From IMG/VR virus record IMGVR_UViG_3300030061_002970: DNA of 64,000 bases; one strand, 5' to 3'. Source of the stretch: a virus. The notes under the pieces are model-generated. The model worked only from the letters and a program-made list of their open reading frames with translations, did not search any database and had not been told where the DNA came from. Positions 8,166-53,790 of the stretch are shown in pieces. The position numbers and the translations under genes were made by a program. Numbering within the stretch: position 1 is the stretch's first letter; each line of letters begins with the position of its first letter.

Positions 8166-8166
8166 T

Positions 8167-10008: not shown

Positions 10009-10010
10009 AC

Positions 10011-10108
10011 TTTACTATATTGACCAATAACTTACTTTTAATTTTAATGGTGGAACTATTTATTTTATATACACCATAAACCCTTTTTGGGTCAATATAT
10101 AATGTAAA
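10011..10108 (+). promoter_or_regulatory. nested RNA stem-loop spanning the intergenic region, with a TATTTAT motif in the inner loop
   Basis: TATATTGACC 10016-25 / GGTCAATATA 10090-99; ATGGTG 10047-52 / CACCAT 10072-77; TATTTAT 10057-63. Confidence 0.6.
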
Positions 10109-10110
10109 AG

Positions 10111-13100
10111 ATGTCTAAATCTATTAGAGTAAGAACACAAGTTGGAAAAGACCAAAAAGTAAGTTTTGAGTTAAAACAAGATTTTGACTTATTAGAAATT
10201 TTAAGTTTATCCCTATCACAAAATGATGTTTACACTAGAATGTGTGCTGACTTTGGTGTGGTAGTAGGTAGAGTAATATCTAATGGAGGTTACGGAATAC
10301 CTAACGCTAAAGTATCTGTATTCATTCCAATAGATAGAGAAGATGAACAAAACCCCGTAATACAACAACTATATCCCTACACCCAACCCTTTGATACAAC
10401 TACTGACGGAAAAAGATATAATCTATTATCAAAAGACCCAAATTTTGATTGTCATGTAGCGGTAGGGTCATTCCCATCAATAAACGATGTTTTAGAAAAA
10501 CAAGCAATAGAATATGTTTATGATAAATATTATAAATTTACAGCTAAAACTAATGAAGCGGGTGACTTTATGTTATATGGGGTACCAGTAGGAGACCAAA
10601 CTCTAGTTATGGACGTGGATTTAAGTGATATTGGTTGTTTTTCTATGTTACCAGAAGATTTTAAACAATTAGGATTTCCTGATTCTGATTTTGATGGGAC
10701 TAGATTTAGAACTGATGCAGCGATAGATTCACTACCACAAATTATAGGACAACAAAAATCTATAGATGTTAGACCATTTTGGGGTGATGAAGAGTTTTGT
10801 AGTGCTGCCATAACTAGAGTAGACTTCGACCTCTCAAACTCAGGAGTTAAAATACAACCAACATCAGTTTTAATGGGTAGTACAGCTACAGATACCGATA
10901 AAGAATCCGTTAACAAAAGATGTAGACCAAGAAAACATATGGGGGAACTATGTAGTCTTACAAGTCAACCAGGAATAATAGACTGTATTAGATACACACC
11001 ATTTTTTAAGGAGGATACATCAGCTTTTCCAGAATGGCCTTATGATGGCACTGGAGGTGGTGGGGGACAAGTTCCAGTAATGGAAAGATTTTATTTTGAT
11101 GATGGTGGTAGAGTAATTGACGAAACTGGTTCTTTTTTAGTACATATACCTATGAATTTAGACCATGTTATTACAGATGAATTTGGTAATTTAGTTAAGT
11201 CTAATGACCCTAGTTTAGGGGTGGCTACAAGAGCTAGATGTAGATTTAGAGTTAGGCCAGAATCATCTGCTGGTACATCTAGACAAAGAAGACGTGGTTC
11301 ACATTTAGTACCACAAATTAGAGAATTTGGACCACACACAGACACTAATGGTGATTATCCTGAAATAGGAGAAAATTTGGTTGATGGTGACGGTAATAAT
11401 AAAAGATATGACCCATATTGTTTTTCTATAGAATATAGTGATTATCATCCTTGGGCTCAGGCAAATTTAATACCAGGAGCAAAAGATTTATTTTATGATA
11501 TGTCATTCAACAGAGTATATACGTACTCTCAATTTCATGACCACGTTAAACACAACGGTAGAAGACAATTTATTGGGGTTAAAGAAATATTACCAGAACA
11601 AGACCAACAATGTTCTACAAGTGCAATGTTTTTCCCAATCAATAGTGCGGTTAGAAGAGCAAAAACTATAATATTTTTAAATCAATTTATTCTATTTTTT
11701 GTATATGGGATATATTTGATGATGAGTTCATTAATTGGTATTATCGCTACAGTTTTTGGTATTATAATGGTGGTAGTCGCCATAGTAATGGTAGTTATAT
11801 GTATGATACACGACCTACTTAGTGCTTGGGGGTGGCTTGCAAGTATGTTAGGTATAGGACCAGCACCTACAATATGTTCCCAATTAACTTGGAGTAGTTC
11901 CTGTCAACCCACCTGTACTGTTTTCGGGATACCTTCAGGGTTTATTTTATTCACCTTAAGACAAAAAAAATATCCAGAATGTGAAGAGTGTATGTGTAGA
12001 ACTAATGTACAAGGAATAAATGGTAATGATATGGCATTGTTGGGGCCTGGGTATGGTTGGAGTAACGATGATTGTGAAGTCTCAACCAATATTTGGGGGA
12101 TTGAGAGAGATGTGGTTTGTTGCCCCGATTCATATGGTTATGACTCAACAACCTCATTTCCACCACTGAACGTTTTAGGTGACCCTACCAATGTTAATAA
12201 TGATTTAGGTGCTGGTGGGGGTTGTTATGTTAAACCAATTTGTATGAATGTAGCATGTCTCGGATTTAATACTAATACAGTATTAATAAGAGAATGGTAT
12301 AGAAGAGAAAAAATATTTTCTGCATTGTGTAATGGTATAATGAATTATTTTTGGGAAAATGCTTGGGTAAACGGGTTCCTATACCAATTCCAATTTAGAG
12401 CTAAACTATCTTATGATGCAGGTAACGATACTTACGCTACACCAGCGACTAGTTACTGTAAAAAAGTAGTATACTTACACCCTAATGACCATACTTTTTA
12501 TTATAGGTGTACACCATTTAGATGGCAATCAGCAACCACAGGTAAATTTATTGGTGACACAGATGGTGTAAAAGGTGGAAATAATAGTGATAATGAACAT
12601 TCTGCTGGTGATATGGACCGACATCTTTATTTCCCAACTACGATTGTTGACATGGGGTCAAGAAACCAATGTATACAACAAATATGTTTAGATGAAAAAT
12701 TTGCTGAAGAATGTTCAGTAACAGACCAGATAGGTAGTACCTCATTCCAAGATATAACAGACTTGGTTTCTGACGCTTATAATATGAAAGCCAGACAACA
12801 GAATTTACAGTTAGGTGATTTATTTGCTAGACCAGAATCAGAAATTGGTGGTGATATGGCACAAGCTTTAATGCAAAATTCTATGTTAGGTGTGTTTGGG
12901 TATGAAACTAATACAACTACAACATCTTGTGATTGTAGTGTAGCACCAGCCCCAAGCATACCAGCAACAGGTGATATAGAATATCCTTTACCTAATAATT
13001 GGAATGATACTGGTGTGTATGTTGACTACGCTGTTAATGTAAATGCGGGGTACGATATTCAATGGAGACCTCATTTATTTACCGCTGGTACCCCAACCAT

Positions 13101-13530
13101 CATGACAGGTATGGATTTAATAGATTGTTTAGCTTATGAATTATCTGGTAGTTCACAAATAGTACCTTATTATCTTTGGAGGGTAGATGGTTCTAGTGGA
13201 TTCGGTACAGAAAATAATGATTGGCAATACACCACAGGTTCATATCAATCACAAACTTATAATTGGACAATACCAGGTACACCATTCATCAATACCGCAC
13301 CACTACTTATACATTCGGGGGATTACCAAAATAATGTAGGTGCGTTGAATAGTTTACCACAACCTGGAACTCCAGGTGACGCATACCCACCTATGACACC
13401 AAACACAGGACCCTCTATATTGTTCTCACAACCATTATTTTATTATTTTGGGTTGAGGCCAGGAGAAACAGCTTATAATAAATTTATTAGATTATATGTG
13501 GATGAAGAATTAGCTAATAGTGTAATATAA
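10111..13530 (+). CDS. large baseplate/tail-associated protein with an N-terminal carboxypeptidase-regulatory-like beta domain, internal hydrophobic helices and a Cys-rich region
   Basis: VVGRV..NGG.GIPNAKVSVFIP…TNEAGDFMLYGVPVG; hydrophobic stretch at about aa 520-583; follows the wedge gene. Confidence 0.6.
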   Translation: MSKSIRVRTQVGKDQKVSFELKQDFDLLEILSLSLSQNDVYTRMCADFGVVVGRVISNGGYGIPNAKVSVFIPIDREDEQNPVIQQLYPYTQPFDTTTDGKRYNLLSKDPNFDCHVAVGSFPSINDVLEKQAIEYVYDKYYKFTAKTNEAGDFMLYGVPVGDQTLVMDVDLSDIGCFSMLPEDFKQLGFPDSDFDGTRFRTDAAIDSLPQIIGQQKSIDVRPFWGDEEFCSAAITRVDFDLSNSGVKIQPTSVLMGSTATDTDKESVNKRCRPRKHMGELCSLTSQPGIIDCIRYTPFFKEDTSAFPEWPYDGTGGGGGQVPVMERFYFDDGGRVIDETGSFLVHIPMNLDHVITDEFGNLVKSNDPSLGVATRARCRFRVRPESSAGTSRQRRRGSHLVPQIREFGPHTDTNGDYPEIGENLVDGDGNNKRYDPYCFSIEYSDYHPWAQANLIPGAKDLFYDMSFNRVYTYSQFHDHVKHNGRRQFIGVKEILPEQDQQCSTSAMFFPINSAVRRAKTIIFLNQFILFFVYGIYLMMSSLIGIIATVFGIIMVVVAIVMVVICMIHDLLSAWGWLASMLGIGPAPTICSQLTWSSSCQPTCTVFGIPSGFILFTLRQKKYPECEECMCRTNVQGINGNDMALLGPGYGWSNDDCEVSTNIWGIERDVVCCPDSYGYDSTTSFPPLNVLGDPTNVNNDLGAGGGCYVKPICMNVACLGFNTNTVLIREWYRREKIFSALCNGIMNYFWENAWVNGFLYQFQFRAKLSYDAGNDTYATPATSYCKKVVYLHPNDHTFYYRCTPFRWQSATTGKFIGDTDGVKGGNNSDNEHSAGDMDRHLYFPTTIVDMGSRNQCIQQICLDEKFAEECSVTDQIGSTSFQDITDLVSDAYNMKARQQNLQLGDLFARPESEIGGDMAQALMQNSMLGVFGYETNTTTTSCDCSVAPAPSIPATGDIEYPLPNNWNDTGVYVDYAVNVNAGYDIQWRPHLFTAGTPTIMTGMDLIDCLAYELSGSSQIVPYYLWRVDGSSGFGTENNDWQYTTGSYQSQTYNWTIPGTPFINTAPLLIHSGDYQNNVGALNSLPQPGTPGDAYPPMTPNTGPSILFSQPLFYYFGLRPGETAYNKFIRLYVDEELANSVI

Positions 13531-15347
13531 TGAGTAATAAAAAAAACATAAGAATTGTTAGGGGCGAATCTAGATTTGCTGGTTCACAAAATAAAGATAT
13601 TAGTTTACAACCTTTATTAACGTCAGAACAACGCCCAATGATTGAGGGGGATAGAAATCTAGTTCTTAATCTTAGAGACCAGTTTGATTTTGAAAGAGAT
13701 TATTCTACAATTTATAGACCATATGGTAAAATAGATGTTTTATATAGTAATAGGATAACAGGTGAAACTAATGACAATAGAGTTTTGGAGTATATGTATT
13801 TTACACCGGATTATATAGGTTGTCCAGATATTACGGTAGCAAGTGTAGGGCAAACTTATTGGAGTGGTCCACCATGTGTCGGATTACCACCATCTGATTT
13901 ATTTACTTTTATGCCACCATATAGATATGGTACAGTAAACGCTTCACAGTATAGTAGTTTGGATTCATACCAAGATAATTGGGTTGCTTATATATCCTAT
14001 ATTTCAGATTGTGATAGTGGTCAAACTATGAGTTTTAGTGTGGGTGATGGTACAGACGGAATAAATTTAAATAGTGGTGATGGGATTCCAGCTCGTATAC
14101 AAGTAATAACTACAAACGGTAAAGAAACAATAAGAATAACAACACCATCACCTCACGGTATATCATCCGGAGAATTTGTAGAATTACAGAGTAGTGCATC
14201 AATCAGTAACTTTGGTGGGGCCACACTAGTCCCAACAGTGCCAATTACTACAGACATAAATAATGTGTCCGTAACCACCAATAAAAACATATTTAATGTA
14301 GATTTTTTGGGTAATGAATTTGCTAATTCAGAAACTCACGTTTTAAATATATACACTAAAGGGATAGACATAACAGCCATACCAACAAATTCTTTTTGTG
14401 TCATAAAACGTATAATAAACATAGACAATATTAATGAAACACGTTCTAGATATTGTAGTCACATCCACACATTAATAACTAACTCTTCAGATTATACATT
14501 GGATAGGACAGGTTTTGAAAATGGTATTTACAATAAAAAAGGTAGGGTTTTTAAGTCTAAAAAAACACCAGATAATTATGGTGATAAAACGGTAATCCTA
14601 GAAGATTTTAAGTCTTTTTTGTGGAATACAAACATGGATGTGGATGTGGAAGAATTTTTAGACAATCTAAATAGACCATTAACTGACTTATACCTAACAA
14701 TATTCCAGACAAATAGAAATCTTATGTGGCATTATGAAGCCCCAGCCAATTCCCCAGCAGGGTACGGATGGGATTGGAATTTTAGACATAACGGATTTGT
14801 AGACCCATTTGTAAATAATGATACCAACCCAACAAACTTATTTCAAAACACAACTAATGGTTTAGACCCGTTACCTTTAAGTGGTACAACATATAGAGGT
14901 GCCTTTGTTGAGTACAACCCTTTTGAATTAAAGGAAAGGGTAGTTTCTGAAATCAAACACTCTTTAAAATTTAATACAGATGCTATGTATGAATTTGCTG
15001 GGTACCCAAATACATCTAGTTCACAAGTACATGTAAAATCTATATACAACTATCAACCACATCACAGAATACCAATACGTAAACTATCAACAACTATAAG
15101 TTATGAAGATAGTCTATTTACAACACCACCATACGCTACCTATTCTTTATCAGAGGGGACTTTTAGGTGGAGACCAATATTACCTATAGATTTTTTTGAA
15201 GATGGGGATAATGGGGTCACTTACCCATATTTAAATGATGCACATTATCCATATTTAAATATAGAATTTAAAATAGAACCTATAATGTTTGGGTATAGCT
15301 CTAGTAGCATAAATGTAGTTTCAGGATTTGTCGATGTCTGCGAATAG
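13530..15347 (+). CDS. putative virion structural protein (baseplate/tail region)
   Basis: TAATG coupling; ITTPSPHGISSGEFV (ubiquitin-activating/ASCH-like 'HG..GD.V' beta motif common in phage tail proteins). Confidence 0.55.
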   Translation: MSNKKNIRIVRGESRFAGSQNKDISLQPLLTSEQRPMIEGDRNLVLNLRDQFDFERDYSTIYRPYGKIDVLYSNRITGETNDNRVLEYMYFTPDYIGCPDITVASVGQTYWSGPPCVGLPPSDLFTFMPPYRYGTVNASQYSSLDSYQDNWVAYISYISDCDSGQTMSFSVGDGTDGINLNSGDGIPARIQVITTNGKETIRITTPSPHGISSGEFVELQSSASISNFGGATLVPTVPITTDINNVSVTTNKNIFNVDFLGNEFANSETHVLNIYTKGIDITAIPTNSFCVIKRIINIDNINETRSRYCSHIHTLITNSSDYTLDRTGFENGIYNKKGRVFKSKKTPDNYGDKTVILEDFKSFLWNTNMDVDVEEFLDNLNRPLTDLYLTIFQTNRNLMWHYEAPANSPAGYGWDWNFRHNGFVDPFVNNDTNPTNLFQNTTNGLDPLPLSGTTYRGAFVEYNPFELKERVVSEIKHSLKFNTDAMYEFAGYPNTSSSQVHVKSIYNYQPHHRIPIRKLSTTISYEDSLFTTPPYATYSLSEGTFRWRPILPIDFFEDGDNGVTYPYLNDAHYPYLNIEFKIEPIMFGYSSSSINVVSGFVDVCE

Positions 15348-16197
15348 AATACAAATAAAAGCGTCATTAAAAAATAAAAAAGTTGTTGTGCCTTTAGGTC
15401 AAATTTTTGATGAAGTAGGTAGAGAACAACTTTTAGAAATGTATGATGAGATAGAGTTACAAAATAATATAAACTATATACAAGATTATGAAACTACTAG
15501 ATACGCACCTAATTACCCACCTAAATTTGAAATATATTACGAATTTGAATTTTGGGATAGTGCAAATTCTACCTATGTCAGTGATTTTAATATATTAGAT
15601 TATAGTAATTCCGAATTAGCAAAAAACGCACAAGCCTTCACTAAAAGCTTTTTTAAATTTGATTTTTTTGATACACCAGTTAGAGAAGAACAAAAACTAC
15701 TATTTTCAACAATAATGCCCACTAATAACTGTAGAAAGAAAAGTGTAGTCATAAACCCAGCAGAAGACCCAGAAGAATATTGGAATCAAAGAAGTGAAGG
15801 TATCAACTTACCACAATATGATATATATACACCAGCGTTCTCTGCTGCATCAGCTCCTGAAGGTGCTAATGAAAATTATTATTTACAATGGTTAAAAGAT
15901 AGAGATTTATTTACTGGTAATACATTTTACATGACCTGTAAATTCTTTAATGGTAAAACTGGTACAGTTATCAGAATGTTAAATCAGTTACCATCACCGA
16001 TACAAGGACAATATAGTTTTGAAGATTTTTTCTATTACCAGATAATTTTAAATATAGAAACTGGTAATACAAACCCAAAATATAATTATACAGTACACCC
16101 GTATAATTCAGTAGCTGGAGCTACTGGAATAACATTAGCACCAGCAGGTGAAACGGTCTTAGGACCAATAAAATTTTATGAATACGTAACTACATAG
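15334..16197 (+). CDS. putative virion structural protein
   Basis: ATG at 15334 preferred over TTG 15328; located in the structural operon. Confidence 0.55.
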   Translation: MSANRIQIKASLKNKKVVVPLGQIFDEVGREQLLEMYDEIELQNNINYIQDYETTRYAPNYPPKFEIYYEFEFWDSANSTYVSDFNILDYSNSELAKNAQAFTKSFFKFDFFDTPVREEQKLLFSTIMPTNNCRKKSVVINPAEDPEEYWNQRSEGINLPQYDIYTPAFSAASAPEGANENYYLQWLKDRDLFTGNTFYMTCKFFNGKTGTVIRMLNQLPSPIQGQYSFEDFFYYQIILNIETGNTNPKYNYTVHPYNSVAGATGITLAPAGETVLGPIKFYEYVTT

Positions 16198-16198
16198 T

Positions 16199-19100
16199 AT
16201 GGATATACAAAAGTTTACAATACGAAGAAATACCCCGGACACTGGGAGTACTGGAACAATACCCTGTACTGGGGGGACAAATTTTTACCCTATAAACCTT
16301 AGTACAAATTGTTCGGGAGACACGATGTATAACTCAACAGGTTCTCAAATAATGAGTGCTTTAGACAGTGGTGTTATGTCTAGTTTTCCGGATGAACTAA
16401 AAGATTGTTCACCTACAATCCCATGTGTTATTTTATGGGACGCGGCACTAAACCCAAGCCCAAATAATTGTTACAATCCAGACGGGTATAGTTATGTTAA
16501 ATTTAAAGGTTTAGTACTTACTTCTGGAGGAACCTTCTACACTGGTAGTTATAATGATTTAATTACAATATATGATGTTACAAACACAAATATAAATCAA
16601 CCGTTAAACTCACAAGGTATTAATGCATTTTGGGGTGAAAGTGTGGAAATATGCAGTTGTTTGGACCCACTAGATGATATTTTATATAAGTTACCCCTAA
16701 CACTAACACAAGACTTCAATGATATAGGGCACTATAGTATTTGGGATGGTAGAATAGACCAACAACAAGTATTTTCTAACTTTACTTTTACAGCTAACAC
16801 TACAGGGAATGGTATGAAAATACAAGTATATAATACAACCAACTTTGGTTCGTATAAAGAATTCCAACAATCCTCATATAGAATTGATTGGGGTGAATGT
16901 GATTGTTCTATACCAGTTAATGCTAACGGTTATCCTTGTTGTGAAGATTTACAATATCCATCCTTAACAAGTGAATATGAATATGTAAATCCATCACAAT
17001 ATAGTATTAAGATAACCCATGAAGGTCCATGGGGACCAACGTCTGTCAGTCAAATAATAACAGTACCCAACCTAACCTATACTCAAATATTAGCACAACC
17101 ATTTTCATCAGCACCACCAACAGGAGCTGGAATGGGTGGAGCTGCGGTAGGAGCAGGGGTAGCACTATCACCAACAACACCAGGAGGTGACCCATATCAA
17201 GTAAATTTAAGTGGTCCTAACCCAACACCATCAGTAACACCACCACCAATGTTTACCTCAACAGCGTATCACGGTACTTACGGTACTATTGGTACACCAA
17301 ACTATTACCCTTTAGATTCTGGTACTAACATAAATCAATATAGTGGTACCTCTATAGGTTGTTTTGAACTTACGGGTATCACAGAAAGTTCAGTAGGTAT
17401 ATTTTCTACATATAGTAATACACCATCTACCACAGCTCCAGGATTTTTACCTAATGGGTTTGAAAAATTTGTCACAGTACCTGTTGGTGGTGACGTTATA
17501 GACCCATTAACTAACACTATAACAGCAGGTATGGTGGGGGAGATATTCGAAGCAAATGCAATATACACTGGATATACAATATCTTCCGCAAATGGACAAA
17601 CTCCTATAGATTTTTATGACTTTCCAAATGGAATAACAATTTTTGTGGCTACTAGTTGTGGTTTAAATTCTTTAGCGTTTGGTGGTGAAGATTGTTTTGA
17701 ATGTCCCGAAGAAACTTGTGAATTTTGTTTAACTAAAGATGAATATATTGATAGGGTTACACTCACAGTAGAAACTATAACACCTAATCCACCATCTAGT
17801 CCACCTAATTGGTCACCTTTTGTAGATTATGTTAAAGGAGATATCGTATATGATGTAACACCACAGTCTTGTTGTTGTTATATTGCTGTGACAGATATAA
17901 CACAAACAAGTAATGTTGGAGGTAACAGTCCATTCGCAGGAATACTACCACACCAACTATATCAAGGTGTCTATGTTAATCCTACTGGACCTGATGTACA
18001 TGTGTGGGAAGGTTGTACACCTGATTGTGTGAGTTGTCCTACAGGAAGTGCTTTACCTTGTGAAGACCCTTATAATATTTTTAATGCATATTCACCTATG
18101 GGTGCTATTGGAATAGCGGGACAGTGGAATAACACACAAGTTTTTAACGCTGGTGAGTTTATATATGGTCCAGACGGAAATTGTTATAGAGCAATAAATA
18201 ATGTGCCAGCTGGTATCGTACCAACAGCCACTACTAACGTGACAAGTTGGGATTACGTGGGATGTGCAAGTTGGGTGTGTCCACAAGATTTAACAAATGT
18301 TGGTCCTGACGTTTGTGAATTAATTTCAGGGAGTACTCCTAATAGTTTTACTTTCTACGCGGGACCAGGAGGCTGTCTAACCGCATATAATAATGGTAAT
18401 TGTCCTGTAGATGATAGATGGCATTGCCCAAACCAATATAATTGTGACACACCTGGATGTATACAAATAGATTACACACATCCACAATATAATAATCCTG
18501 GTTACCCACTATCAGTTACTTTTTCATCAATGACAGACTGTGAAGACTGGTGTAACCCAATAGCTTGGTCATGTACAACACCAACAAATACACCATGTTG
18601 TTCTGAAGTTTCGTGTGCTGCTTTACCAGATTCAGACTATTATGATATAATGACAAATTATATACTTGCTACACCACAAGTAACTGCCACTAATAACCAA
18701 CTATTCCTAGACCCATTTTACACTTTAAATGATTGTGAAACTGGTGTCCCAGGACAAGGAATATCCGCATGTTGTGATTTTACAGCTTGGGAATATTTTT
18801 GTGACACAGGGTGTGTACAAATAACAGGTGGTAATTATCCCACTTCTGGTGATTGTGCAAGTGACCCAAATAATCTAGGTGGTTTACCAGGTCCTTGTGG
18901 TTGGGACTGTTATGACCCCTGGTACCAACCATGTAGTGGTGGTACCGGTTTTCCTGGTAGTACTACTTGTGTACCTTGTTATACTAATGGTTGTGGGCAA
19001 TACAATACCTCAGCAGATTGTTGTACCTATTGTAACCCACCATTAACTGACTGTTGGGTTTGTTTAAGTGGTTCAGCTACACCATGTCAAAATCTAGCAC

Positions 19101-22100
19101 CTTGTCCTACACCATTACCAACTTGGGAGGCGGACTGGGCTATTGACCCAGCACTTGTACCATTAAGTGGGTTTGGAGCAAATCCAAATCCTACAGACCC
19201 AACCTTAGCTTTACTATATCCAAATGGGTCCTACGCTACTGCACAAGATTGTGATGATAATTGTCCTACAGACGGTGGTATAGATTGTTTAGTTAGTTTA
19301 ACTAATGGTAGTAGTTATGGTAATTGTGCAAATTATCCAAACCCAGTTGCATTACCTAGTGGTTGGGGTTGGTCACCTGGAGGCCCTTATGATTCTTATT
19401 CAGCTTGTTGTATAGCAACAGGTTGTTGTGATATAGAGTGTGATGAAAACTCTTCGATATTTAATCCAATGAGTGGATTATATGACCCATCATGGCCATA
19501 TTGGCCTTGTGTTTACACTCCTGTTGCAGTAGGAAGTGCTAATATACCTTGTAGTCCTTTAGGGCCAATATATTGTACATTTACAGAATGTGTGACAGCC
19601 AATCCAAATGGTTGTATTCCTGACGGAGAAACTTGTGAGTGTGCGTGTGACCCATTTACTGGTGGTGTTGGTGTAGACCAAGAAGAGTGGGATAGTACAT
19701 ATAATAACTATCAACAATATGATTATGTATCTTGGCAAGTAGGAGCACCTGATGTTTGTTGTTATTATTGTGATGTACCATCAGGTAGTAATCCTTACGT
19801 GGGTCCACCAGCAGGATTTTATGATTGTAATTATTTTATACCTGGAGGGCCAGACGCACCAAACGGAACACCAAATGCTTGGATTAGTTGTGGTAGTACC
19901 CCAAGTGGAAATACGGTTGGTGGTTGTGACCCATGTCAACAAGTTTCCGGGGATACCTATAGTTGTGACTTTATTGATGGTTGTGTTCTTAATGTTATAC
20001 CGTGTAATTTTGTTCTAGGTTCAGAAGCAGCTAACAACTGTTATACTGCTAGTACATGTATGGACCACTGTAGGGCAGGTTGTTTTTGTGATGATAATGG
20101 TACACCATCAGACCCTTCGGATGATTTTACAGATTGTGTAATGCAACAGGATGTTATAAATGGAGTAACGACCAACTCATCAAGTTGGTACGGGTTTTTA
20201 AGTGTGTGGCAGTGTCAACAAGGCATACTAGCACCACCACCAAGTAATTTAGATTGTTGTTCTGGTGCAACTAGTAAATTTCATTGTGACGATACTGAAT
20301 GGTGTAGTTCATTAAACCCTTGTGTAGCACCTGATGGTTGTGGATGTATAGAAGTTTTTCCTGGAGACCCACTGTATCCTACAGCAGCTTATACTACTTT
20401 ATCCGACTGTCAACAAAATTGTAAGTGGGCTTGTGACCCTTCGTCAACCGGAGGACAATGTCAATTTGTAGGTAATAATCCATTAAACTTATTTCCAGAA
20501 CATACTTCAGCTTTTGACTGTTGGTCCAATACAAATAACTGTAACTGTACAGCACCTTCAGTTTATTTTTGTGATACGAATGCTGGACAATCAGCAACTA
20601 CTACAAATTGTTTCCCAGAAACTACCATAGTAAGTTGGATTGCTACACCACCTTTCCCAGGATGGACCCAAAATCAAGTATTTGGGCAACAGGGTACTGG
20701 TACACCTTATCCAGCTGGTGCTACTGGATTCGCTTCCTTGGGGGACTGTCAAGCAGCTTGTAGATTTTGTTGTGACACAAATGTTAGTTGTACTTGTGAC
20801 TTAAACCCGTATAACTTTTCCTGTGCGTTATCTATAGGAGATTGTATAAGTTTACAAGCTCAATATCCTTGTTGTCCACAAACAACAGAATATTGTTGTG
20901 ATGAAACATTAGGGTGTATAAGTTTTGTTGGTACGATGCCAGCAAGTTGTGTACACGGACCATTTGCAACACCAACCCAGTGTCAAGACGAGTGTAATTT
21001 TATATGTGGAGAATGTAAACCAGATTTAGGTGCTACAGCACAACCAGACCCATGTCACTGTAGTCTTATAACTATACCATTTTATTCAGCAGTACCACCA
21101 TATGGTGCTTGTACAGCTTATAATACTTTAGCAGACTGTATAGCCAATTCTTACCCATTAGGTGGTACAGGTTCTAATAATACTACATGTTGTCCGTGTG
21201 AAGATTGTAAAACAGCAGGTAGTGTTACATTCCCAATAATTGACGCTGGTGGTACTTGGTCATTAAGTAACGTTGCAATACCAATGCCAATAGTAGGTAG
21301 TGTACTTGCAACCCCAGCATGGACTCCGGGGGTAAGTTATACTATAGGTGATGTTGTAATTGACGGTGGTGGAAGTGGAGGAACATTAACTAGTTGTTGT
21401 TTTGTTATGGTGTATGACCAATATGACCCTGCTTTACATAGTTCTATGAATCCACACGAATGGTATGATGCATACGCGAATGAATTAGCAAATAATACAC
21501 CTAGTACATTTCCTGGTGGACAACCAAATGGAGGATACCCAATGTGGGTACCGTGTGACACCAGTTGTCCTACCACAGCTGCAACTCCTACGATGTATGA
21601 ATGTCTTCCAGGGCAACCAATATACACTGGTCCTTGTATGAACGCAACTCTGCAATACCCAATAAATCCAGTAGGAAATACTGGGTACGGAGCGATGGGT
21701 ATTAATGCAGGAACCAGTTCCTGGTCGTTTCCTCAAATATTTTTTGATTGGATAGTACAAACTTTCCCACCAAATACGGCATTTGCTAGTAAAAAAGCTG
21801 TGAGTCCAAACGCTGTCAATGCTTCCTGCCCTAATCCTGACCCTAATCAGTATGGTGGTGCTGGTGGAATGTTTCTGACACGACCTAGTTGTCATTCTCA
21901 AAATGTTATATATACCACAGCAAATGGATGTCCCCAGTCTGTACCTTTCCTTGATTGGAATGAGGCTATCACTTGGTTAAATCAGGTTAATACAAATCTA
22001 GGTTTACCAACAACATTTAATACGGGTATGAATGTACAAGAAGCAAGAGATGAAATGACTAGTTATGGGGAAACAAATGTCGGGCTTTTCGCTGGTTCGT

Positions 22101-24148
22101 CTAGTTGTCAATGTTCACAAGTAGGACCATGTTCTTGTCAACAATGTACTAGTGGACTTAACTGTGTATATCCAAATTTAACATTATGTAATTTAGCAGC
22201 AACTGCAACTCCTTGTTGTCAACCACCACAAACAGGATACTATGTTTGTGATACAGGAAATCCAAACCCAGGTACTGGAGTTTGTCCTTGTGTGTGGGAC
22301 GCAAATGCTATTGTGGGGTATAATTCTATCTCAGATTGTACAGGTGACACCAGTACATGTTGCTATCAACCAACTCCAACAATGTGGAAATGTAACCCTT
22401 ATTCAGCAACTACATCAGGATGGTCAGGTTGGGATGGTTATTTACAACAGATGAATACTGTGGGGACTACAGCGTTAAATCATTTTACTATAGACGTTGC
22501 AGATGCTCAATATCTAGTATTAATGGGGCAGTCTCAAGCATACGCCAATACAATAATAAATGCAGGGTATTTCCCAGATGAACTAACAGCTTTACAAGTG
22601 TTTTTTGCTAAAGCTAGAGGATTGGGTTATGATTTTGATGGTCCTGGTTCTACATTGGCTGGTGCTAGTCTTAGTGCTTACTACTTTGGTCTTGCAAATT
22701 ATGTTAGTCATGTACAATGTTTTCCATATACAACACAACCAGGATTACAACAATCTCCTGACTGTTTTGCACAAGTAGCGGATGGTACCTATCGTTTGAA
22801 AAGACTGCTAGTGAATACTACCATCCCATCTATACTTGGTGGTGGTGGTAACGTTCTTATCTACTTTAGTGAGAATACTTATTGGTATAATGTGATGATG
22901 GGAAATACATCATGTCTAACCAATGCCAGTCTGAATATAATCTACAGTCCGAGTCAGGCGGGTAGTCCTCAGTATAGTCCTGATGGATATCTTCTTGACC
23001 TTGCATTACTTATTAGTACCATAAATAATGACCCTAATATACCTTGTAATGGTCCTTCAGCACCTACTACAGCACTTAAGGTTATTTCTCTACCAATGTG
23101 TACACCACCATGTGAATGTTACCAAGACCCTAGTGGTGTATATAGTTCACTGTCACAATGTGAACTAGACCCAACAAATTGTTGTGATACAATTATACCA
23201 GATAGTTGGGATTGTGTTAATTGTCCGGGAACATGTAATTGTTTAGACCCAGGAACTGGACTAGGTGTGTATACAACACTTAATGATTGTTTAACTGATT
23301 GTGTAAACCCACTTACACAAGGTTGTGAAGATTGTGATATTACCTTAGCTAATGTTTTAACTTCACAAGCAATCTATTTGGGTGGATGGGACCCACTCAC
23401 CCAATATAATTTAAGTGAGTGTGTAGTTTCTGATGATGATGATTGTTGTTATTGTTGTGTACCAGCAGGGCCTACACCAAATAGTGCAAACCCATACACT
23501 TCTCAAAGTCTACAAACTATGTTATTTCAAGTTGCTGCAGCTTCAGTATGTAAAGATGGTCAAGGAGACCCTAGTTCTATCATAGGTATAAATATTGGTG
23601 GTGGAATGTGGTTACCGTGTAACGTTGATGTTAATAATAACCCATGTGGTACTTCACCCATTGTAGAATGTGAGGACTGTAATACGACACTATATAACGA
23701 TTTACCAACACCAGTAACTTTCCCACACCAATCAATTAATACAGCATATACTTCTGTACCATTTCAATTAGGTCAATGTATATATAATGTAGACCCTACA
23801 AAAATAAACGAAAATTGTTGTTGGTGTTGTGGTTGTGAATTTGGTTGGGATAGTGTTGATAACAAATGTTTAGAACCAGGTCCTATCGGCCCTGCTGGAC
23901 CTGGTGGACCAAGTTTACCAACAGCTAAGTCTGCACAATATAGTTCAGTAATGCCACCACCTTGCCAAATTATTAATATGGACCCAGGTACTGGTGACCC
24001 TAACAGTGGTGATTTTATAGTTAATAATGGTACCTATAATAGTGCGTGGTTACCTTGTGGTGTTAATAGTCTAAATAATCCTTGTGGTGGTGCAAATAGT
24101 TCATCCTCATCATCCATACAACCGGACTCATCTATAGTACCTTTTTAA
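16199..24148 (+). CDS. giant (2649 aa) cysteine-rich modular virion protein, probable fibre/adhesin: PKD-like N-terminal part, CBM5/12-like motifs, many (W/Y)xC…GC…Y.SL..C…C repeats
   Basis: Single long ORF; YRIDWG…YEY..P.QY PKD-like motif; repeated Cys modules; no signal peptide. Confidence 0.7.
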   Translation: MDIQKFTIRRNTPDTGSTGTIPCTGGTNFYPINLSTNCSGDTMYNSTGSQIMSALDSGVMSSFPDELKDCSPTIPCVILWDAALNPSPNNCYNPDGYSYVKFKGLVLTSGGTFYTGSYNDLITIYDVTNTNINQPLNSQGINAFWGESVEICSCLDPLDDILYKLPLTLTQDFNDIGHYSIWDGRIDQQQVFSNFTFTANTTGNGMKIQVYNTTNFGSYKEFQQSSYRIDWGECDCSIPVNANGYPCCEDLQYPSLTSEYEYVNPSQYSIKITHEGPWGPTSVSQIITVPNLTYTQILAQPFSSAPPTGAGMGGAAVGAGVALSPTTPGGDPYQVNLSGPNPTPSVTPPPMFTSTAYHGTYGTIGTPNYYPLDSGTNINQYSGTSIGCFELTGITESSVGIFSTYSNTPSTTAPGFLPNGFEKFVTVPVGGDVIDPLTNTITAGMVGEIFEANAIYTGYTISSANGQTPIDFYDFPNGITIFVATSCGLNSLAFGGEDCFECPEETCEFCLTKDEYIDRVTLTVETITPNPPSSPPNWSPFVDYVKGDIVYDVTPQSCCCYIAVTDITQTSNVGGNSPFAGILPHQLYQGVYVNPTGPDVHVWEGCTPDCVSCPTGSALPCEDPYNIFNAYSPMGAIGIAGQWNNTQVFNAGEFIYGPDGNCYRAINNVPAGIVPTATTNVTSWDYVGCASWVCPQDLTNVGPDVCELISGSTPNSFTFYAGPGGCLTAYNNGNCPVDDRWHCPNQYNCDTPGCIQIDYTHPQYNNPGYPLSVTFSSMTDCEDWCNPIAWSCTTPTNTPCCSEVSCAALPDSDYYDIMTNYILATPQVTATNNQLFLDPFYTLNDCETGVPGQGISACCDFTAWEYFCDTGCVQITGGNYPTSGDCASDPNNLGGLPGPCGWDCYDPWYQPCSGGTGFPGSTTCVPCYTNGCGQYNTSADCCTYCNPPLTDCWVCLSGSATPCQNLAPCPTPLPTWEADWAIDPALVPLSGFGANPNPTDPTLALLYPNGSYATAQDCDDNCPTDGGIDCLVSLTNGSSYGNCANYPNPVALPSGWGWSPGGPYDSYSACCIATGCCDIECDENSSIFNPMSGLYDPSWPYWPCVYTPVAVGSANIPCSPLGPIYCTFTECVTANPNGCIPDGETCECACDPFTGGVGVDQEEWDSTYNNYQQYDYVSWQVGAPDVCCYYCDVPSGSNPYVGPPAGFYDCNYFIPGGPDAPNGTPNAWISCGSTPSGNTVGGCDPCQQVSGDTYSCDFIDGCVLNVIPCNFVLGSEAANNCYTASTCMDHCRAGCFCDDNGTPSDPSDDFTDCVMQQDVINGVTTNSSSWYGFLSVWQCQQGILAPPPSNLDCCSGATSKFHCDDTEWCSSLNPCVAPDGCGCIEVFPGDPLYPTAAYTTLSDCQQNCKWACDPSSTGGQCQFVGNNPLNLFPEHTSAFDCWSNTNNCNCTAPSVYFCDTNAGQSATTTNCFPETTIVSWIATPPFPGWTQNQVFGQQGTGTPYPAGATGFASLGDCQAACRFCCDTNVSCTCDLNPYNFSCALSIGDCISLQAQYPCCPQTTEYCCDETLGCISFVGTMPASCVHGPFATPTQCQDECNFICGECKPDLGATAQPDPCHCSLITIPFYSAVPPYGACTAYNTLADCIANSYPLGGTGSNNTTCCPCEDCKTAGSVTFPIIDAGGTWSLSNVAIPMPIVGSVLATPAWTPGVSYTIGDVVIDGGGSGGTLTSCCFVMVYDQYDPALHSSMNPHEWYDAYANELANNTPSTFPGGQPNGGYPMWVPCDTSCPTTAATPTMYECLPGQPIYTGPCMNATLQYPINPVGNTGYGAMGINAGTSSWSFPQIFFDWIVQTFPPNTAFASKKAVSPNAVNASCPNPDPNQYGGAGGMFLTRPSCHSQNVIYTTANGCPQSVPFLDWNEAITWLNQVNTNLGLPTTFNTGMNVQEARDEMTSYGETNVGLFAGSSSCQCSQVGPCSCQQCTSGLNCVYPNLTLCNLAATATPCCQPPQTGYYVCDTGNPNPGTGVCPCVWDANAIVGYNSISDCTGDTSTCCYQPTPTMWKCNPYSATTSGWSGWDGYLQQMNTVGTTALNHFTIDVADAQYLVLMGQSQAYANTIINAGYFPDELTALQVFFAKARGLGYDFDGPGSTLAGASLSAYYFGLANYVSHVQCFPYTTQPGLQQSPDCFAQVADGTYRLKRLLVNTTIPSILGGGGNVLIYFSENTYWYNVMMGNTSCLTNASLNIIYSPSQAGSPQYSPDGYLLDLALLISTINNDPNIPCNGPSAPTTALKVISLPMCTPPCECYQDPSGVYSSLSQCELDPTNCCDTIIPDSWDCVNCPGTCNCLDPGTGLGVYTTLNDCLTDCVNPLTQGCEDCDITLANVLTSQAIYLGGWDPLTQYNLSECVVSDDDDCCYCCVPAGPTPNSANPYTSQSLQTMLFQVAAASVCKDGQGDPSSIIGINIGGGMWLPCNVDVNNNPCGTSPIVECEDCNTTLYNDLPTPVTFPHQSINTAYTSVPFQLGQCIYNVDPTKINENCCWCCGCEFGWDSVDNKCLEPGPIGPAGPGGPSLPTAKSAQYSSVMPPPCQIINMDPGTGDPNSGDFIVNNGTYNSAWLPCGVNSLNNPCGGANSSSSSSIQPDSSIVPF

Positions 24149-24766: not shown

Positions 24767-24988
24767 ATGGGATTTAAAAAAATTTTTAGAAATGGTTGTA
24801 TACCACCTTTAACAAAAGAAGAGGTTTTAATGAATGTTTGTGAAAGACCAGAAACCAGGTCTAACATATTTATTGAAAGAGGTAAAATAACCGTCTTTGA
24901 AAAACCCCAAAGACTAGGACAAACACCAAATTTAGGTGAGTTAGAGTTACATGGATATGGGTTTTATAAAATTAATAAACAACCTTAA
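24767..24988 (+). CDS. small structural-module protein (possibly the detached C-terminal domain of the 16199 protein)
   Basis: LTKEEVL…SNIFIERGK…QRLG…LGEL…GYGFY; has its own TATTTAT motif. Confidence 0.65.
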   Translation: MGFKKIFRNGCIPPLTKEEVLMNVCERPETRSNIFIERGKITVFEKPQRLGQTPNLGELELHGYGFYKINKQP

Positions 24989-53424: not shown

Positions 53425-53790
53425 ATGAAATTTAATACAGGAAATTATAAATTATCATTATTTACTGAAGATGTATGTGAAGACTGTAAAAGTTTAAAAG
53501 ATATTCTACAGGATAACAATATCCCATTCACCAACTTAAGTATCACCACTAAAGTAGATTCAGAAGAACAAAAAAAAATTAATTCTGCTAATAGATGGGA
53601 TTTTATAGATGCAGAAAGAGACAATAATGGGTTTAACTGGTTTACACCAGTTATGGTTATAGAAAGTGATAATGGTGAAATATCTTATATACCATCAGTA
53701 CGAGATACTGTAAATTGTGATGATGGGAAGTGTGTAAATGACATGACATCAGAAAACGTACTAAAAGTCCTAACACCATACCTTACCTAA
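53425..53790 (+). CDS. glutaredoxin/thioredoxin-fold protein
   Basis: LFT..VCEDC..LK..L…IPF; FTPVMVI cis-Pro loop; extra C-terminal Cys pair. Confidence 0.7.
   Translation: MKFNTGNYKLSLFTEDVCEDCKSLKDILQDNNIPFTNLSITTKVDSEEQKKINSANRWDFIDAERDNNGFNWFTPVMVIESDNGEISYIPSVRDTVNCDDGKCVNDMTSENVLKVLTPYLT

What the first reader, a model, noticed from the sequence alone, without database searches (positions are those of the whole stretch)
16199..24148. 2649-aa cysteine-rich modular virion protein built from a repeated small Cys domain plus carbohydrate-binding-like motifs
Seen: after about aa 500 the protein is, by eye, roughly 1 in 10 Cys, very poor in Lys/Arg, and has no signal peptide. It repeats a 35-60 aa unit (W/Y/F)xC-x(n)-GC-x(n)-G-x-(Y/F)-x(S/T)L..C…C(C) well over a dozen times, e.g. 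WEYFCDTGCVQITGGNYPTSGDC, YCCDETLGCISF…GPFATPTQCQDEC, WDCVNCPGTCNCLDPGTGLGVYTTLNDCLTDC. About five W-x4/5-Y-xx-G(D/E)-x-V units are interleaved (TGG codons at 17810, 18125, 19688, 21320, 23387), most followed by a CC cluster and a W.(P/S/G)C closure. Established: W…Y..GD.V is the CBM5/12 (ChtBD3) signature, and proteins this Cys-rich are typical of eukaryotic extracellular matrices rather than cytoplasmically assembled phage particles. Inference: a very long beaded fibre/adhesin stabilised by disulfides or metals, binding glycans on the host or on particles. I do not recognise the repeat unit as a named family.
Basis: partly seen in the sequence, partly recalled or inferred. Interest (0 to 1): 0.85.

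Follow-up and report, generated by a model that had tools for sequence, protein, structure and literature searches.

The report
Giant cysteine-bead phage baseplate adhesin
An uncultured ocean jumbo phage encodes, among its baseplate genes, a real 2,649-residue protein that strings chitin-binding-type domains and small four-cysteine beads (the same beads found in secreted surface proteins of marine Flavobacteriales) into what is most likely a long, disulfide-locked host-adhesion fibre with swappable tips.

Summary
The ORF (16199-24148, +) is real. It has 2,649 aa, 197 Cys (7.4%) and only 1.5% Lys+Arg. 56 marine IMG/VR loci encode relatives. 86% of its alignable Cys are kept in at least 90% of 25 homologues, against 31% or less for any other residue.

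The gene follows gp25-like and gp6-like baseplate genes in strictly conserved synteny. Its first ~520 aa are the widely conserved part. The distal third holds two Cys-poor cassettes that are swapped between close relatives.

The repeat unit is real, with about 10-12 detectable copies rather than "well over a dozen". Pfam, NCBIfam and PHROGs have no model for it. It is, however, the same ~30-aa four-Cys module that occurs in tandem in T9SS-sorted, signal-peptide proteins of uncultured marine Flavobacteriales. This argues for disulfides and points to the host.

Two of the five W…Y..GD.V units fold like CBM5/12 in an AlphaFold model (Z 4.2-5.6). They stay below Pfam's threshold.

Best reading: a disulfide-beaded baseplate fibre or adhesin. 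Virion location, disulfides and ligand are all inferred.

This scan already reported homologues of this protein on two other genomes (e1-5403328, e1-5788369). My tests agree with those reports.

The parts
16199..24148 (+). Whole gene: 2,649-aa Cys-rich, Lys/Arg-poor protein (P0001)
   Evidence: Homologues of 2,440-2,991 aa with 7.4-8.6% Cys in 56 IMG/VR loci.
16199..17758 (+). Conserved N-terminal region (aa 1-520), the presumed baseplate-anchoring part. It is the only part shared with the short (540-650 aa) and medium (870-1,250 aa) forms in other lineages.
   Evidence: AF2 model mf48d3d75666b: a domain at aa 30-155 with pLDDT about 90 and a beta domain at aa 388-487.
16766..17080 (+). PKD/FN3-like Ig domain (aa 190-294)
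   Evidence: Foldseek and VIA hits to PKD and FN3 domains, Z 7-8.6. Best BFVD hit is a 'PKD domain-containing protein' of an uncultured phage, E 2.4e-13.
17693..17728 (+). Invariant C-x2-C-x4-C-x2-C motif (aa 499-510), a possible Zn knuckle at the end of the anchor region
   Evidence: C499, C507 and C510 are invariant and C502 is also invariant in the giant forms. Metal binding is inferred from the spacing only.
17804..18022 (+). W-unit 1 (aa 536-608), CBM5/12-like, with a CCC cluster and a W-x-G-C closure
   Evidence: VIA Z 4.2-5.2 to the CBM12 of Vibrio chitin deacetylase and to the Moritella chitinase ChBD. Motif located.
18050..18271 (+). W-unit 2 (aa 618-691), CBM5/12-like
   Evidence: VIA Z 4.7-5.6, rmsd 1.4-2.6 A over 45-50 aa, to 3wx7, 4tx8, 1wvv, 1e6r, and to tail-fibre domains 8kec, 8fqc, 9rkv. 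The profile's top PDB hit is 3wx7, E 0.21.
18419..18553 (+). Four-Cys unit (aa 741-785)
   Evidence: HMM i-E 1.7e-11. In the AF2 model it forms a beta-hairpin plus C-terminal helix. It gives weak Kunitz-like fold matches, Z 2.6-4.2.
18788..18868 (+). Four-Cys unit (aa 864-890)
19688..19891 (+). W-unit 3 (aa 1164-1231) with a CC cluster and a W-I-S-C closure
   Evidence: Motif located. Not modelled.
20285..20995 (+). Run of four four-Cys units (aa 1363-1408, 1410-1448, 1456-1521, 1564-1599)
   Evidence: HMM i-E between 6e-07 and 9e-12.
21320..21568 (+). W-unit 4 (aa 1708-1790) with a CC cluster and a W-V-P-C closure
   Evidence: Pfam CBM_5_12 gives a partial hit, E 0.03, 14.8 bits, below the cut-off. 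The profile's top PDB hit is 3wx7, E 0.046.
21605..22105 (+). Cys-poor cassette 1 (aa 1803-1969), swapped between close relatives
   Evidence: 62-84% identity to L003 and L006, but only 16-22% to L005 and L004, which are otherwise 63-72% identical. No Pfam hit.
22241..22360 (+). Four-Cys unit (aa 2015-2054) between the two cassettes
22394..23098 (+). Cys-poor cassette 2 (aa 2066-2300), replaced in L006
   Evidence: Query aa 2073-2296 has no alignment in L006. 36-48% identity in L003, L004 and L005. No Pfam hit, no Atlas hit and no homologue outside the family.
23183..23302 (+). Canonical minimal four-Cys module (aa 2329-2368), the best match to the T9SS-type consensus
   Evidence: i-E 3.4e-12 against the merged phage and bacterial HMM.
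23387..24094 (+). W-unit 5 and its tandem duplicate (aa 2397-2484 and about 2519-2632), each closing with W-L-P-C…N-N-P-C-G
   Evidence: Internal duplication of aa 2422-2484 and aa 2565-2630, E 1.3e-7. Motif located.
24767..24988 (+). Conserved 73-aa ORF downstream. In the short-form lineages the same sequence is the C-terminus of the second Cys-rich protein.
   Evidence: tblastn identity 54-100% across more than 40 loci. In L040, L044, L047, L051 and L053 it lies at the 3' end of the downstream Cys-rich ORF. No Pfam hit.
7704..16197 (+). Upstream syntenic baseplate block: gp25-like (7704-8165), gp6-like (8167-10008), and conserved 1,139-, 605- and 289-aa proteins
   Evidence: PHROG baseplate wedge families 261 and 43, and Pfam Baseplate_J. 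The same gene order occurs in all loci inspected.

Best explanation
This is the lineage-specific giant form of a baseplate-attached fibre or adhesin of uncultured marine jumbo T4-like myoviruses that probably infect Flavobacteriales. It has three parts.

(1) The conserved N-terminal ~520 aa, including a PKD-like Ig domain, docks the protein on the baseplate periphery.

(2) Residues ~520-1700 form a conserved chain of small independent beads. Some are CBM5/12-like beta domains closed by CC…W.xC clusters. Others are ~30-45-aa four-Cys hairpin-plus-helix modules. Their near-invariant cysteines form intradomain disulfides once the particle reaches oxic seawater. The result would be a stiff, protease-resistant, very acidic stalk.

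(3) The distal ~950 aa carry two exchangeable Cys-poor globular cassettes and further CBM-like units. These determine what the fibre binds: host surface glycans or proteins.

Shown here: the anatomy, the Cys conservation, the synteny, the distal variability, the identity of the module with that of T9SS cargo proteins, and the CBM5/12-like predicted fold of two units. Inferred: virion location, disulfide chemistry, oligomeric state, ligand and host.
For: Genomic context. The gene follows gp25-like and gp6-like baseplate genes and three conserved proteins. The order is identical in all loci inspected.

Anchor region. The N-terminal region is the only part shared with the 540-1,250-aa forms of other lineages.

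Cysteine conservation. Cys is conserved in at least 90% of homologues at 162 of 189 alignable positions. The next best residues are Trp at 31% and Gly at 22%.

Module identity. A unit HMM built from phage sequences alone hits 116 of 118 proteins retrieved with the tandem-unit protein P0034. Many of these carry a Por_Secre_tail (T9SS) domain, a signal peptide and a peptidase domain, and some are named Flavobacteriaceae or Flavobacteriales. The peptide W-D-C-D-G-Q-G-N-C occurs in 26 stretches of 185,579 species genomes: 23 in Flavobacteriales MAGs, 2 in Bacteroidota and 1 in Neomarinimicrobiota. These are periplasm-transiting, extracellular proteins, in which paired Cys are expected to be disulfides.

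Variation pattern. Against the 94%-identical relative L002, the first 1,650 aa are 92-100% identical per 50-aa window and the distal third is 60-98%. Cassettes 1 and 2 are swapped among 63-74%-identical relatives. A conserved proximal part with a variable distal part is the pattern typical of receptor-binding fibres.

Fold. CBM5/12-type fold matches, including small domains of solved phage tail fibres.

Precedent. Disulfide-bonded phage tails are documented for Pam3 (PMC9942802) and Milano (PMC10811340).

Origin. GC3 equals that of the neighbours, so the gene is native rather than a recent import.
Against: No virion proteomics exists and there is no cultured relative. The closest cultured phages share only 26-32% identity in gp6 and helicase and lack this protein.

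No sequence or fold link to T4 gp7-gp12 was found.

Phage tails assemble in a reducing cytoplasm. No Erv1-type oxidase or DsbA was found in five related contigs, which are only 25-66% complete.

Total Cys counts are odd in about half of the homologues, so not every Cys can sit in an intrachain disulfide.

The AF2 models are of moderate confidence (mean pLDDT 62 and 65), and I could not read their coordinates to check S-S geometry.

CBM5/12 similarity is below Pfam's cut-off, and such small domains in phage fibres are not always glycan binders.
Confidence: 0.6

Rival explanations
1. Same architecture, but the beads are held by metal ions, as Zn(Cys)4-type sites formed in the cytoplasm, rather than by disulfides.
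For: Assembly takes place in a reducing cytoplasm. An invariant C-x2-C-x4-C-x2-C motif lies at aa 499-510. The minimal unit has C-x4-5-C-x15-C-x3-C spacing on a hairpin-plus-helix. From my own recall, this resembles the beta-beta-alpha zinc-finger layout. No dedicated oxidase was found.
Against: The same module is abundant in Sec- and T9SS-exported extracellular proteins, where disulfides are the norm. The first two Cys are separated by up to about 20 residues in many phage units, unlike a zinc knuckle. His is almost absent at 0.7%. The fold matches are to disulfide-rich Kunitz domains, not to zinc fingers.
Confidence: 0.2
2. The protein is a substrate adhesin rather than a host-receptor binder. 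Its CBM5/12-like and Ig-like beads would tether virions to chitin or polysaccharide particles (marine snow, algal surfaces) where Flavobacteriales feed. This would raise encounter rates, as proposed for Ig-like capsid decorations that bind mucus.
For: At least five CBM5/12-type motifs, two with a supporting fold. A PKD-like domain. The putative hosts are particle-associated polysaccharide degraders whose own secreted enzymes use the same bead.
Against: The gene sits in the baseplate block, not among head-decoration genes. Cassette swapping in the distal third fits an arms race with a host receptor better than binding to an invariant polymer. The two readings are not mutually exclusive.
Confidence: 0.15
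3. It is not a virion component. It is a phage-encoded released or surface-displayed protein, for example a protease-inhibiting shield built from Kunitz-like beads.
For: The unit at aa 733-787 resembles Kunitz/BPTI domains; about 18 of the 50 listed rows are Kunitz chains, Z 2.6-4.2. The same bead accompanies secreted peptidases in Flavobacteriales. The extreme Lys/Arg depletion would resist trypsin-like enzymes.
Against: There is no signal peptide. The Pfam Kunitz_BPTI model finds nothing in the protein or in five related contigs. The Cys number and spacing differ from Kunitz. The gene is embedded, one base after the preceding stop, in a conserved baseplate operon.
Confidence: 0.05

Closest known systems
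Unnamed tandem ~30-aa four-Cys module of T9SS-sorted secreted proteins of uncultured marine Flavobacteriales (consensus about T-W-D-C-D-G-x-G-N-C-x-D-P-G-T-G-x-G-Q-Y-S-S-L-x-x-C-Q-x-N-C)
   Same: It is the same module. The phage-only HMM recognises 116 of 118 such proteins. The merged HMM scores aa 2337-2368 of this protein at i-E 3.4e-12. Both are free of Lys/Arg and acidic.
   Different: In bacteria it forms short, nearly identical tandem spacers between a catalytic domain and the T9SS C-terminal domain of exported proteins. In the phage the units are divergent and carry loop insertions of up to about 40 aa. They are interleaved with other domains, and the protein has neither a signal peptide nor a sorting domain.
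CBM5/12 (ChtBD3, Pfam PF02839) chitin-binding domains, e.g. in Vibrio chitin oligosaccharide deacetylase (3wx7, 4nz4), Serratia ChiB (1e6r) and Streptomyces ChiC (1wvv)
   Same: The W…Y..G[DE].V…Y.A…W sequence pattern occurs at five sites. The predicted fold matches over the whole 45-50-aa domain for two units (Z 4.2-5.6).
   Different: The units score below Pfam's threshold. They carry CC/CCC clusters and a W-x-x-C closure that classical CBM5/12 domains lack, plus long loop insertions. No binding data exist.
Small CBM5/12-like domains in solved phage tail fibres and tailspikes (cyanophage A-1(L) 8kec, Agrobacterium phages Milano 8fqc and 7-7-1 9rkv, Pam1 7eea, phiAB6 5js4)
   Same: Same small fold, found in baseplate-attached fibres.
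   Different: Those proteins are 160-650 aa, are not Cys-rich and do not contain the four-Cys bead.
Disulfide-stabilised myophage tails: cyanophage Pam3 (PMC9942802) and Agrobacterium phage Milano (PMC10811340)
   Same: They set the precedent that cytoplasm-assembled phage tails carry functional disulfides in the baseplate and fibres. In Pam3, DTT releases the fibres.
   Different: Those phages have a handful of inter-subunit bonds. Here up to about 98 mostly intradomain bonds could form in a single chain.
Kunitz/BPTI domain (PF00014)
   Same: Hairpin plus C-terminal helix carrying C-x3-C. The matches are weak but coherent as a class. The C-terminal [FY]-x-[ST]-x-x-[DEQ]-C-x3-C resemblance is from my recall.
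   Different: Four rather than six Cys, with different spacing. No HMM match. This is not evidence of membership.
'Moraphages', metagenomic 200-307-kb jumbo phages predicted to infect Bacteroidota/Flavobacteriia (PMC12619734)
   Same: Shared gene content: T4-type gp25 and gp6, a sigma factor, glutaredoxin and DnaJ in this window (compared). Related contigs reach 248-298 kb. The predicted host phylum is the same.
   Different: Membership was not tested, because I held no moraphage sequences. That paper reports mostly freshwater sources and never mentions cysteine.

Membership tests
CBM5/12 (ChtBD3, PF02839) | Compact ~45-60-aa antiparallel beta fold | tested here: met
   Met for units 1 and 2 only. 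VIA Z 4.2-5.6, rmsd 1.2-2.6 A over 45-51 aligned residues against several chitinase and deacetylase CBMs. The AF2 region has pLDDT about 65-85. Units 3-5 were not modelled.
CBM5/12 (ChtBD3, PF02839) | Score at or above Pfam's gathering threshold (26.2 bits) | tested here: not met
   Best scores are 11.5 bits on the whole protein and 14.8 bits on the segment aa 1698-1804. Family profiles rank CBM12 of 3wx7 first, but at E 0.21 and 0.046.
CBM5/12 (ChtBD3, PF02839) | Conserved aromatic/Gly-Asp signature W-x(4-6)-[YF]-x2-G-[DE]-x-V … W | tested here: met
   Five sites at aa 538, 643, 1164, 1708 and 2397. The pattern is conserved across the family in units 1, 2 and 4.
CBM5/12 (ChtBD3, PF02839) | Binding of chitin or cellulose | not testable with these tools
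   Needs pull-down or glycan-array experiments.
Unnamed four-Cys module of T9SS cargo proteins of marine Flavobacteriales | About 30-45 aa with [WYF]-x-C … C … G-x-[YF]-x-[ST]-[LM]-x-x-C-x3-C, recognised reciprocally by profile | tested here: met
   The profile of phage units finds tandem-unit proteins. The phage-only HMM hits 116 of 118 proteins, many of them T9SS-domain proteins. The merged HMM finds 9 units in P0001 against 1 hit in 50 shuffles.
Unnamed four-Cys module of T9SS cargo proteins of marine Flavobacteriales | Host protein is exported (signal peptide plus Por_Secre_tail domain) | tested here: not met
   P0001 has no Por_Secre_tail hit in Pfam or NCBIfam and a hydrophilic N-terminus. 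The module is shared, but the protein class is not.
Kunitz/BPTI (PF00014) | HMM match and six Cys in the canonical spacing | tested here: not met
   No hit in P0001 at E<=1 or in five related contigs. The units have four core Cys with different spacing.
Kunitz/BPTI (PF00014) | Kunitz fold | tested here: inconclusive
   Model residues 209-263 (aa 733-787) align to about 18 Kunitz chains at Z 2.6-4.2, rmsd 2.6-3.4 A over 41-46 residues. The Z is low and the model confidence moderate.
T4-type baseplate-peripheral / tail-fibre protein | Encoded in the baseplate/fibre gene block | tested here: met
   The gene lies directly downstream of gp25-like and gp6-like genes and three conserved proteins. Synteny is conserved in all loci inspected.
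T4-type baseplate-peripheral / tail-fibre protein | Conserved proximal (attachment) part and variable distal (receptor-binding) part | tested here: met
T4-type baseplate-peripheral / tail-fibre protein | Sequence or fold homology to T4 gp7-gp12 or gp34-37 | tested here: inconclusive
   No PDB sequence hit for the N-terminal profile or for the neighbouring proteins. Fold searches returned only PKD/FN3 domains. The domain at aa 30-155 was barely tested.
T4-type baseplate-peripheral / tail-fibre protein | Presence in the virion | not testable with these tools
Diversity-generating retroelement target | Template/variable repeat pair near the variable region | tested here: not met
   No direct repeat of 40 nt or more involves the gene anywhere in the 64-kb window.

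The most novel reading that the evidence does not exclude
A cytoplasm-assembled virus depends on roughly a hundred disulfides in one tail protein, built from a bead taken from (or shared with) its host's secretome. The particles would therefore be released 'soft' and mature oxidatively in seawater. Alternatively, the phage organises oxidative folding inside the cell using its own chaperone set: the window encodes an FKBP-type PPIase, a full DnaJ with its CxxCxGxG zinc-finger domain, and a glutaredoxin-like protein. Infectivity would then be redox-gated. The four-Cys bead would be a new, widespread extracellular domain family of marine Bacteroidota and their phages.
Probability: 0.3. Interest if true: 0.8.

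Novelty: new variant of a known kind. Interest (0 to 1): 0.62.

Why it matters
Flavobacteriales are major degraders of algal and particulate organic matter in the ocean, and their large phages are almost entirely uncultured.

This protein family gives three things:
- A sequence marker that ties a jumbo-phage lineage to uncultured marine Flavobacteriales, through a module otherwise confined to those genomes.
- An extreme case of Cys-based stabilisation in a phage appendage. It raises a concrete and testable question: where and when do the disulfides form?
- A modular scaffold with naturally swappable distal cassettes, useful for studying host-range evolution.

The four-Cys bead also deserves a curated domain model. 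It is common in T9SS cargo proteins, yet the Pfam, NCBIfam and PHROGs copies searched here have no model for it.

Tried and rejected
Library searches.
- Pfam, PHROGs and NCBIfam on the whole protein and on eight segments returned only a sub-threshold CBM_5_12 hit.
- tblastn of the whole protein, of aa 1-584 and of the 1,139-aa neighbour against 50,697 phage records gave no match. megablast of the first 20 kb of the window also gave none.
- PDB sequence searches with profiles of the N-terminal region and of the Cys unit gave nothing.

Cassette 2.
- The ESM Atlas search gave no usable hit.
- The homologue search found only fragments of the same family.

Redox enzymes and DGR.
- Erv1/ALR and DsbA were not found in five related contigs. 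One ordinary thioredoxin was found in the 210-kb contig. These contigs are incomplete, so absence is not shown.
- No DGR-type repeats were found.

Gene-fusion idea. The downstream Cys-rich ORFs of the short-form lineages show no BLAST or unit-HMM similarity to the giant's C-terminal part. The idea that the giant is a simple fusion of those two genes is therefore unsupported, apart from the conserved 73-aa piece.

Uninformative tests.
- Cys presence/absence covariation, tried as a way to infer disulfide partners, was swamped by whole-domain indels.
- Cys parity was also uninformative.
- Whole-protein self-BLAST returned only the identity hit. A windowed self-comparison worked.

- Model coordinates are not exposed, so S-S versus Zn geometry could not be measured.
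Full report
**Observation.** The ORF at 16199-24148 (+) is intact and encodes 2,649 aa. It has 197 Cys (7.4%), 39 Lys+Arg (1.5%) and 18 His, with Thr, Pro and Gly each near 9.5%. The other ORFs in the window have 0-4.8% Cys and 5-19% Lys+Arg. Cys density is 9-16 per 100 aa in aa 701-1700 and 2301-2500. It is low in aa 1-500, 1701-1900 and 2101-2300. The start codon lies one base after the stop of the preceding gene. The higher GC of the gene comes from codon positions 1 and 2. GC3 is 0.18-0.20, the same as in the flanking genes, so the composition reflects the protein and not foreign DNA.

**What kind of genome.** The window carries:
- gp32-like, UvsX/RecA-like, RNase H, DnaB-type helicase and class II RNR genes;
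- a gp25-like wedge protein and a Baseplate_J (gp6-like) protein;
- a primase, a RuvC-like resolvase, a sigma-70-type factor, an amidase, a complete DnaJ, an FKBP-type PPIase and a glutaredoxin-like ORF.

It is therefore a T4-related myovirus. The closest cultured phages are Microcystis phage Mel-JY01 and Flavobacterium phage vB_FspM_immuto. They share only 26-32% identity in gp6 and helicase, and no phage record in the collection matches the target. Contigs that hold homologues reach 248-298 kb. A 210-kb contig is rated 66% complete, so these are jumbo phages. The gene set (gp25, gp6, sigma factor, glutaredoxin, DnaJ) and genome size resemble the recently described 'moraphages' predicted to infect Flavobacteriia (PMC12619734). 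I could not test membership.

**The family.** A protein search found 29 full-length relatives, all metagenomic and unnamed. A scan of IMG/VR found 56 loci. Three forms exist:
- Giant forms of 2,440-2,991 aa have 7.4-8.6% Cys and 0.9-2.4% Lys+Arg.
- Medium forms of 870-1,250 aa have 3.3-6.4% Cys.
- Short forms of 540-650 aa have 3-4% Cys.

The medium and short forms share only the N-terminal region, query aa ~130-565.

Gene order is the same everywhere: gp25-like, gp6-like, ~1,150 aa, ~590 aa, ~310 aa, this gene, a ~305-aa protein, then proteins of 1,000 aa or more. Lineages with short or medium forms have one extra Cys-rich, Lys/Arg-poor ORF (476-1,064 aa) directly downstream. That ORF is not detectably similar to the giant's C-terminal part. 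However, its last ~62 residues are the same sequence as a separate 73-aa ORF found downstream of every giant gene, here at 24767-24988 (54-100% identity).

In an alignment of 25 homologues, 162 of 189 alignable Cys are conserved in at least 90% of sequences. The corresponding figures are 31% for Trp, 22% for Gly and under 10% for most residues. The cysteines are the constrained feature of the protein.

**The repeat unit.** In this protein I count about 10-12 units over all searches:
- Clear units: aa 741-785, 864-890, 1363-1408, 1410-1448, 1456-1521, 1564-1599, 2015-2054 and 2329-2368.
- Weaker or partial units: aa 790-848, 1006-1022, 1619-1650 and 2301-2324.

No Pfam, PHROG or NCBIfam model covers the unit.

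A profile of 40 units was searched against 1.84 billion representative proteins. It found only 29 clusters at E<=1e-3, among them proteins made of tandem minimal units. One of these (P0034, aa 440-850) was used as a new query. It retrieved 270 proteins, many with Por_Secre_tail (the T9SS sorting domain) together with S8, M43, M4 or M12-type peptidases, CUB, FG-GAP or DUF285 domains. Two carry the source names 'Flavobacteriaceae bacterium' and 'Flavobacteriales bacterium'. The HMM built from phage sequences alone recognises 116 of 118 of them. The full-length examples begin with typical signal peptides. Pfam and NCBIfam annotate the flanking domains but leave the tandem 29-aa units blank.

A degenerate DNA pattern for the peptide W-D-C-D-G-Q-G-N-C was scanned over one genome for each of 185,579 species. 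It matched 26 stretches: 23 in Flavobacteriales MAGs from ocean surveys, 2 in Bacteroidota/Bacteroidetes MAGs and 1 in a Neomarinimicrobiota MAG.

This independently confirms the lead in earlier notes e1-5403328 and e1-5788369. Those notes concern homologues of this protein whose lengths (2,894 and 2,454 aa) equal those of my loci L018 and L015.

**Structure predictions.**

*aa 1-575, with a 31-sequence alignment (mean pLDDT 62).* The model shows a confident domain at aa 30-155, an Ig-like sandwich at aa 190-294 and a beta domain at aa 388-487. The Ig-like domain matches PKD and FN3 domains at Z 7-8.6. The best viral match is a PKD-domain protein of an uncultured phage (E 2.4e-13). Nothing matched T4 baseplate proteins.

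*aa 525-950, with a 21-sequence alignment (mean pLDDT 65).*
- W-units 1 and 2 align to CBM5/12 chitin-binding domains of Vibrio chitin oligosaccharide deacetylase, Serratia ChiB, Streptomyces ChiC, and Chromobacterium and Moritella chitinases. They also align to small domains of solved phage fibres (A-1(L), Milano, 7-7-1, Pam1, phiAB6).
- These matches have Z 4.2-5.6 and rmsd 1.2-2.6 A over 45-51 residues, which is the whole domain.
- In the search of 48,161 representative chains only 60 reached Z>=2. They fall into two coherent classes: CBM5/12-type domains, and Kunitz/BPTI domains. The Kunitz class aligns to the Cys unit at aa 733-787 (about 18 rows, Z 2.6-4.2).
- The unit is predicted as a beta-hairpin followed by a helix that carries the C-x3-C pair.

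Sequence tests do not support Kunitz membership. Sequence profiles of W-units 2 and 4 both rank the deacetylase CBM12 pair first in the PDB, but not significantly (E 0.21 and 0.046). Pfam's CBM_5_12 reaches only 14.8 bits. I therefore treat 'CBM5/12-like fold' as supported for two units, and family membership as unproven.

**Variation.**
- Against the 94%-identical relative L002, every 50-aa window of the first 1,650 residues is 92-100% identical. The distal third drops to 60-98%.
- Cassette 1 (aa 1803-1969) is 62-84% identical in L003 and L006, but only 16-22% identical in L005 and L004.
- Cassette 2 (aa 2066-2300) has no alignable counterpart in L006.
- Neither cassette matches any library or any protein outside the family.
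- No DGR-type repeat is present.

A conserved proximal part with a mosaic, fast-evolving distal part is the classic signature of phage receptor-binding fibres.

**Mechanism.** I infer the following sequence:
1. The N-terminal region docks on the baseplate periphery.
2. The conserved middle forms a beads-on-a-string stalk.
3. The distal cassettes and CBM-like units make contact with the target.

Disulfides are the more likely stabiliser (about 65-70%). The identical bead functions in exported bacterial proteins, His is scarce, and the fold matches are to disulfide-rich domains. Phage tails with functional disulfides are known: in Pam3, DTT detaches the fibres (PMC9942802), and Milano has an extensive network (PMC10811340).

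How about 98 potential disulfides would form is open. I found no Erv1 or DsbA homologue in incomplete related contigs. Oxidation after lysis in oxic seawater is the simplest idea. The phage's own FKBP PPIase, DnaJ and glutaredoxin-like genes may assist folding of this protein, which is 9.6% Pro and 7.4% Cys. That last point is speculation.

The invariant C-x2-C-x4-C-x2-C motif at aa 499-510 may bind a metal. Odd Cys totals in about half of the homologues mean that some Cys are free, intermolecular or metal-bound.

**Verdict.** The protein is a new, extreme variant of a known kind, the phage baseplate fibre or adhesin. It is built in part from an uncurated four-Cys module shared with T9SS cargo proteins of the probable hosts. 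The same family was already reported by this scan on two other genomes.

Noticed in passing
window 24767-24988 (+): This 73-aa Lys/Arg-rich ORF is far better conserved than the giant gene, at 54-100% identity in more than 40 loci. In lineages with short forms of the target, the same sequence is the C-terminal ~62 aa of the second Cys-rich protein. It therefore looks like a detached C-terminal domain, possibly an interaction or chaperone module. It has no Pfam hit.
   Followed up: partly
window 24155-24733 (+): A 192-aa Lys-rich ORF (18.8% K+R) sits between the giant gene and the 73-aa ORF. A 213-aa counterpart is present in L016, but L037 and L003 have none. It has no Pfam or PHROG hit. It looks like a mobile insertion in the operon.
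   Followed up: partly
window 2023-2457 (+): An FKBP-type peptidyl-prolyl isomerase (E 3e-18) with an insertion, like that of SlyD, in the FKBP fold. It lies between the UvsX-like and RNase H genes. It is a possible folding helper for the very Pro-rich structural proteins.
   Followed up: no
window 62110-63117 (+), 53947-54744 (+), 53425-53790 (+): A complete DnaJ (J domain, CxxCxGxG zinc-finger domain and C-terminal domain), a sigma-70-family factor and a glutaredoxin-like ORF. This gene set matches the hallmarks reported for 'moraphages' (PMC12619734).
   Followed up: partly
window 39299-40108 (+): A 269-aa protein with 4.8% Cys and EF-hand-type Ca-binding loops near aa 178-208 (Pfam EF-hand_6/1/7, below cut-off), located in the fibre block.
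   Followed up: no
window 32803-32917 (+): Six tandem copies of a 15-nt unit, read in frame as a repeated five-residue G/D/P/R-rich peptide, inside the 1,307-aa ORF 29319-33242.
   Followed up: no
L044:12809-16003, L051:11402-13687, L053:11664-14489, L047:12261-13691, L040:11778-14024: Phage lineages with short or medium forms of the target carry an additional Cys-rich (3.6-6.3%), Lys/Arg-poor ORF directly downstream. Some copies contain W…Y..GD.V-type motifs. It shows no detectable similarity to the giant's C-terminal part.
   Followed up: partly
window 48280-50500 (+): A DegT/DnrJ-type aminotransferase (E 4e-71) followed by a weak family-2 glycosyltransferase match. These are possible sugar-modification genes, for virion proteins or for DNA.
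   Followed up: no
window 63405-63998 (+), runs off the window: An ORF matching Pfam DruA (Druantia protein DruA, E 6e-11) in a phage genome.
   Followed up: no
L078 (PAJD01000015.1): One exact W-D-C-D-G-Q-G-N-C match lies in a MAG labelled Candidatus Neomarinimicrobiota. It is the only hit outside Bacteroidota, and could be either a binning error or a real occurrence.
   Followed up: no
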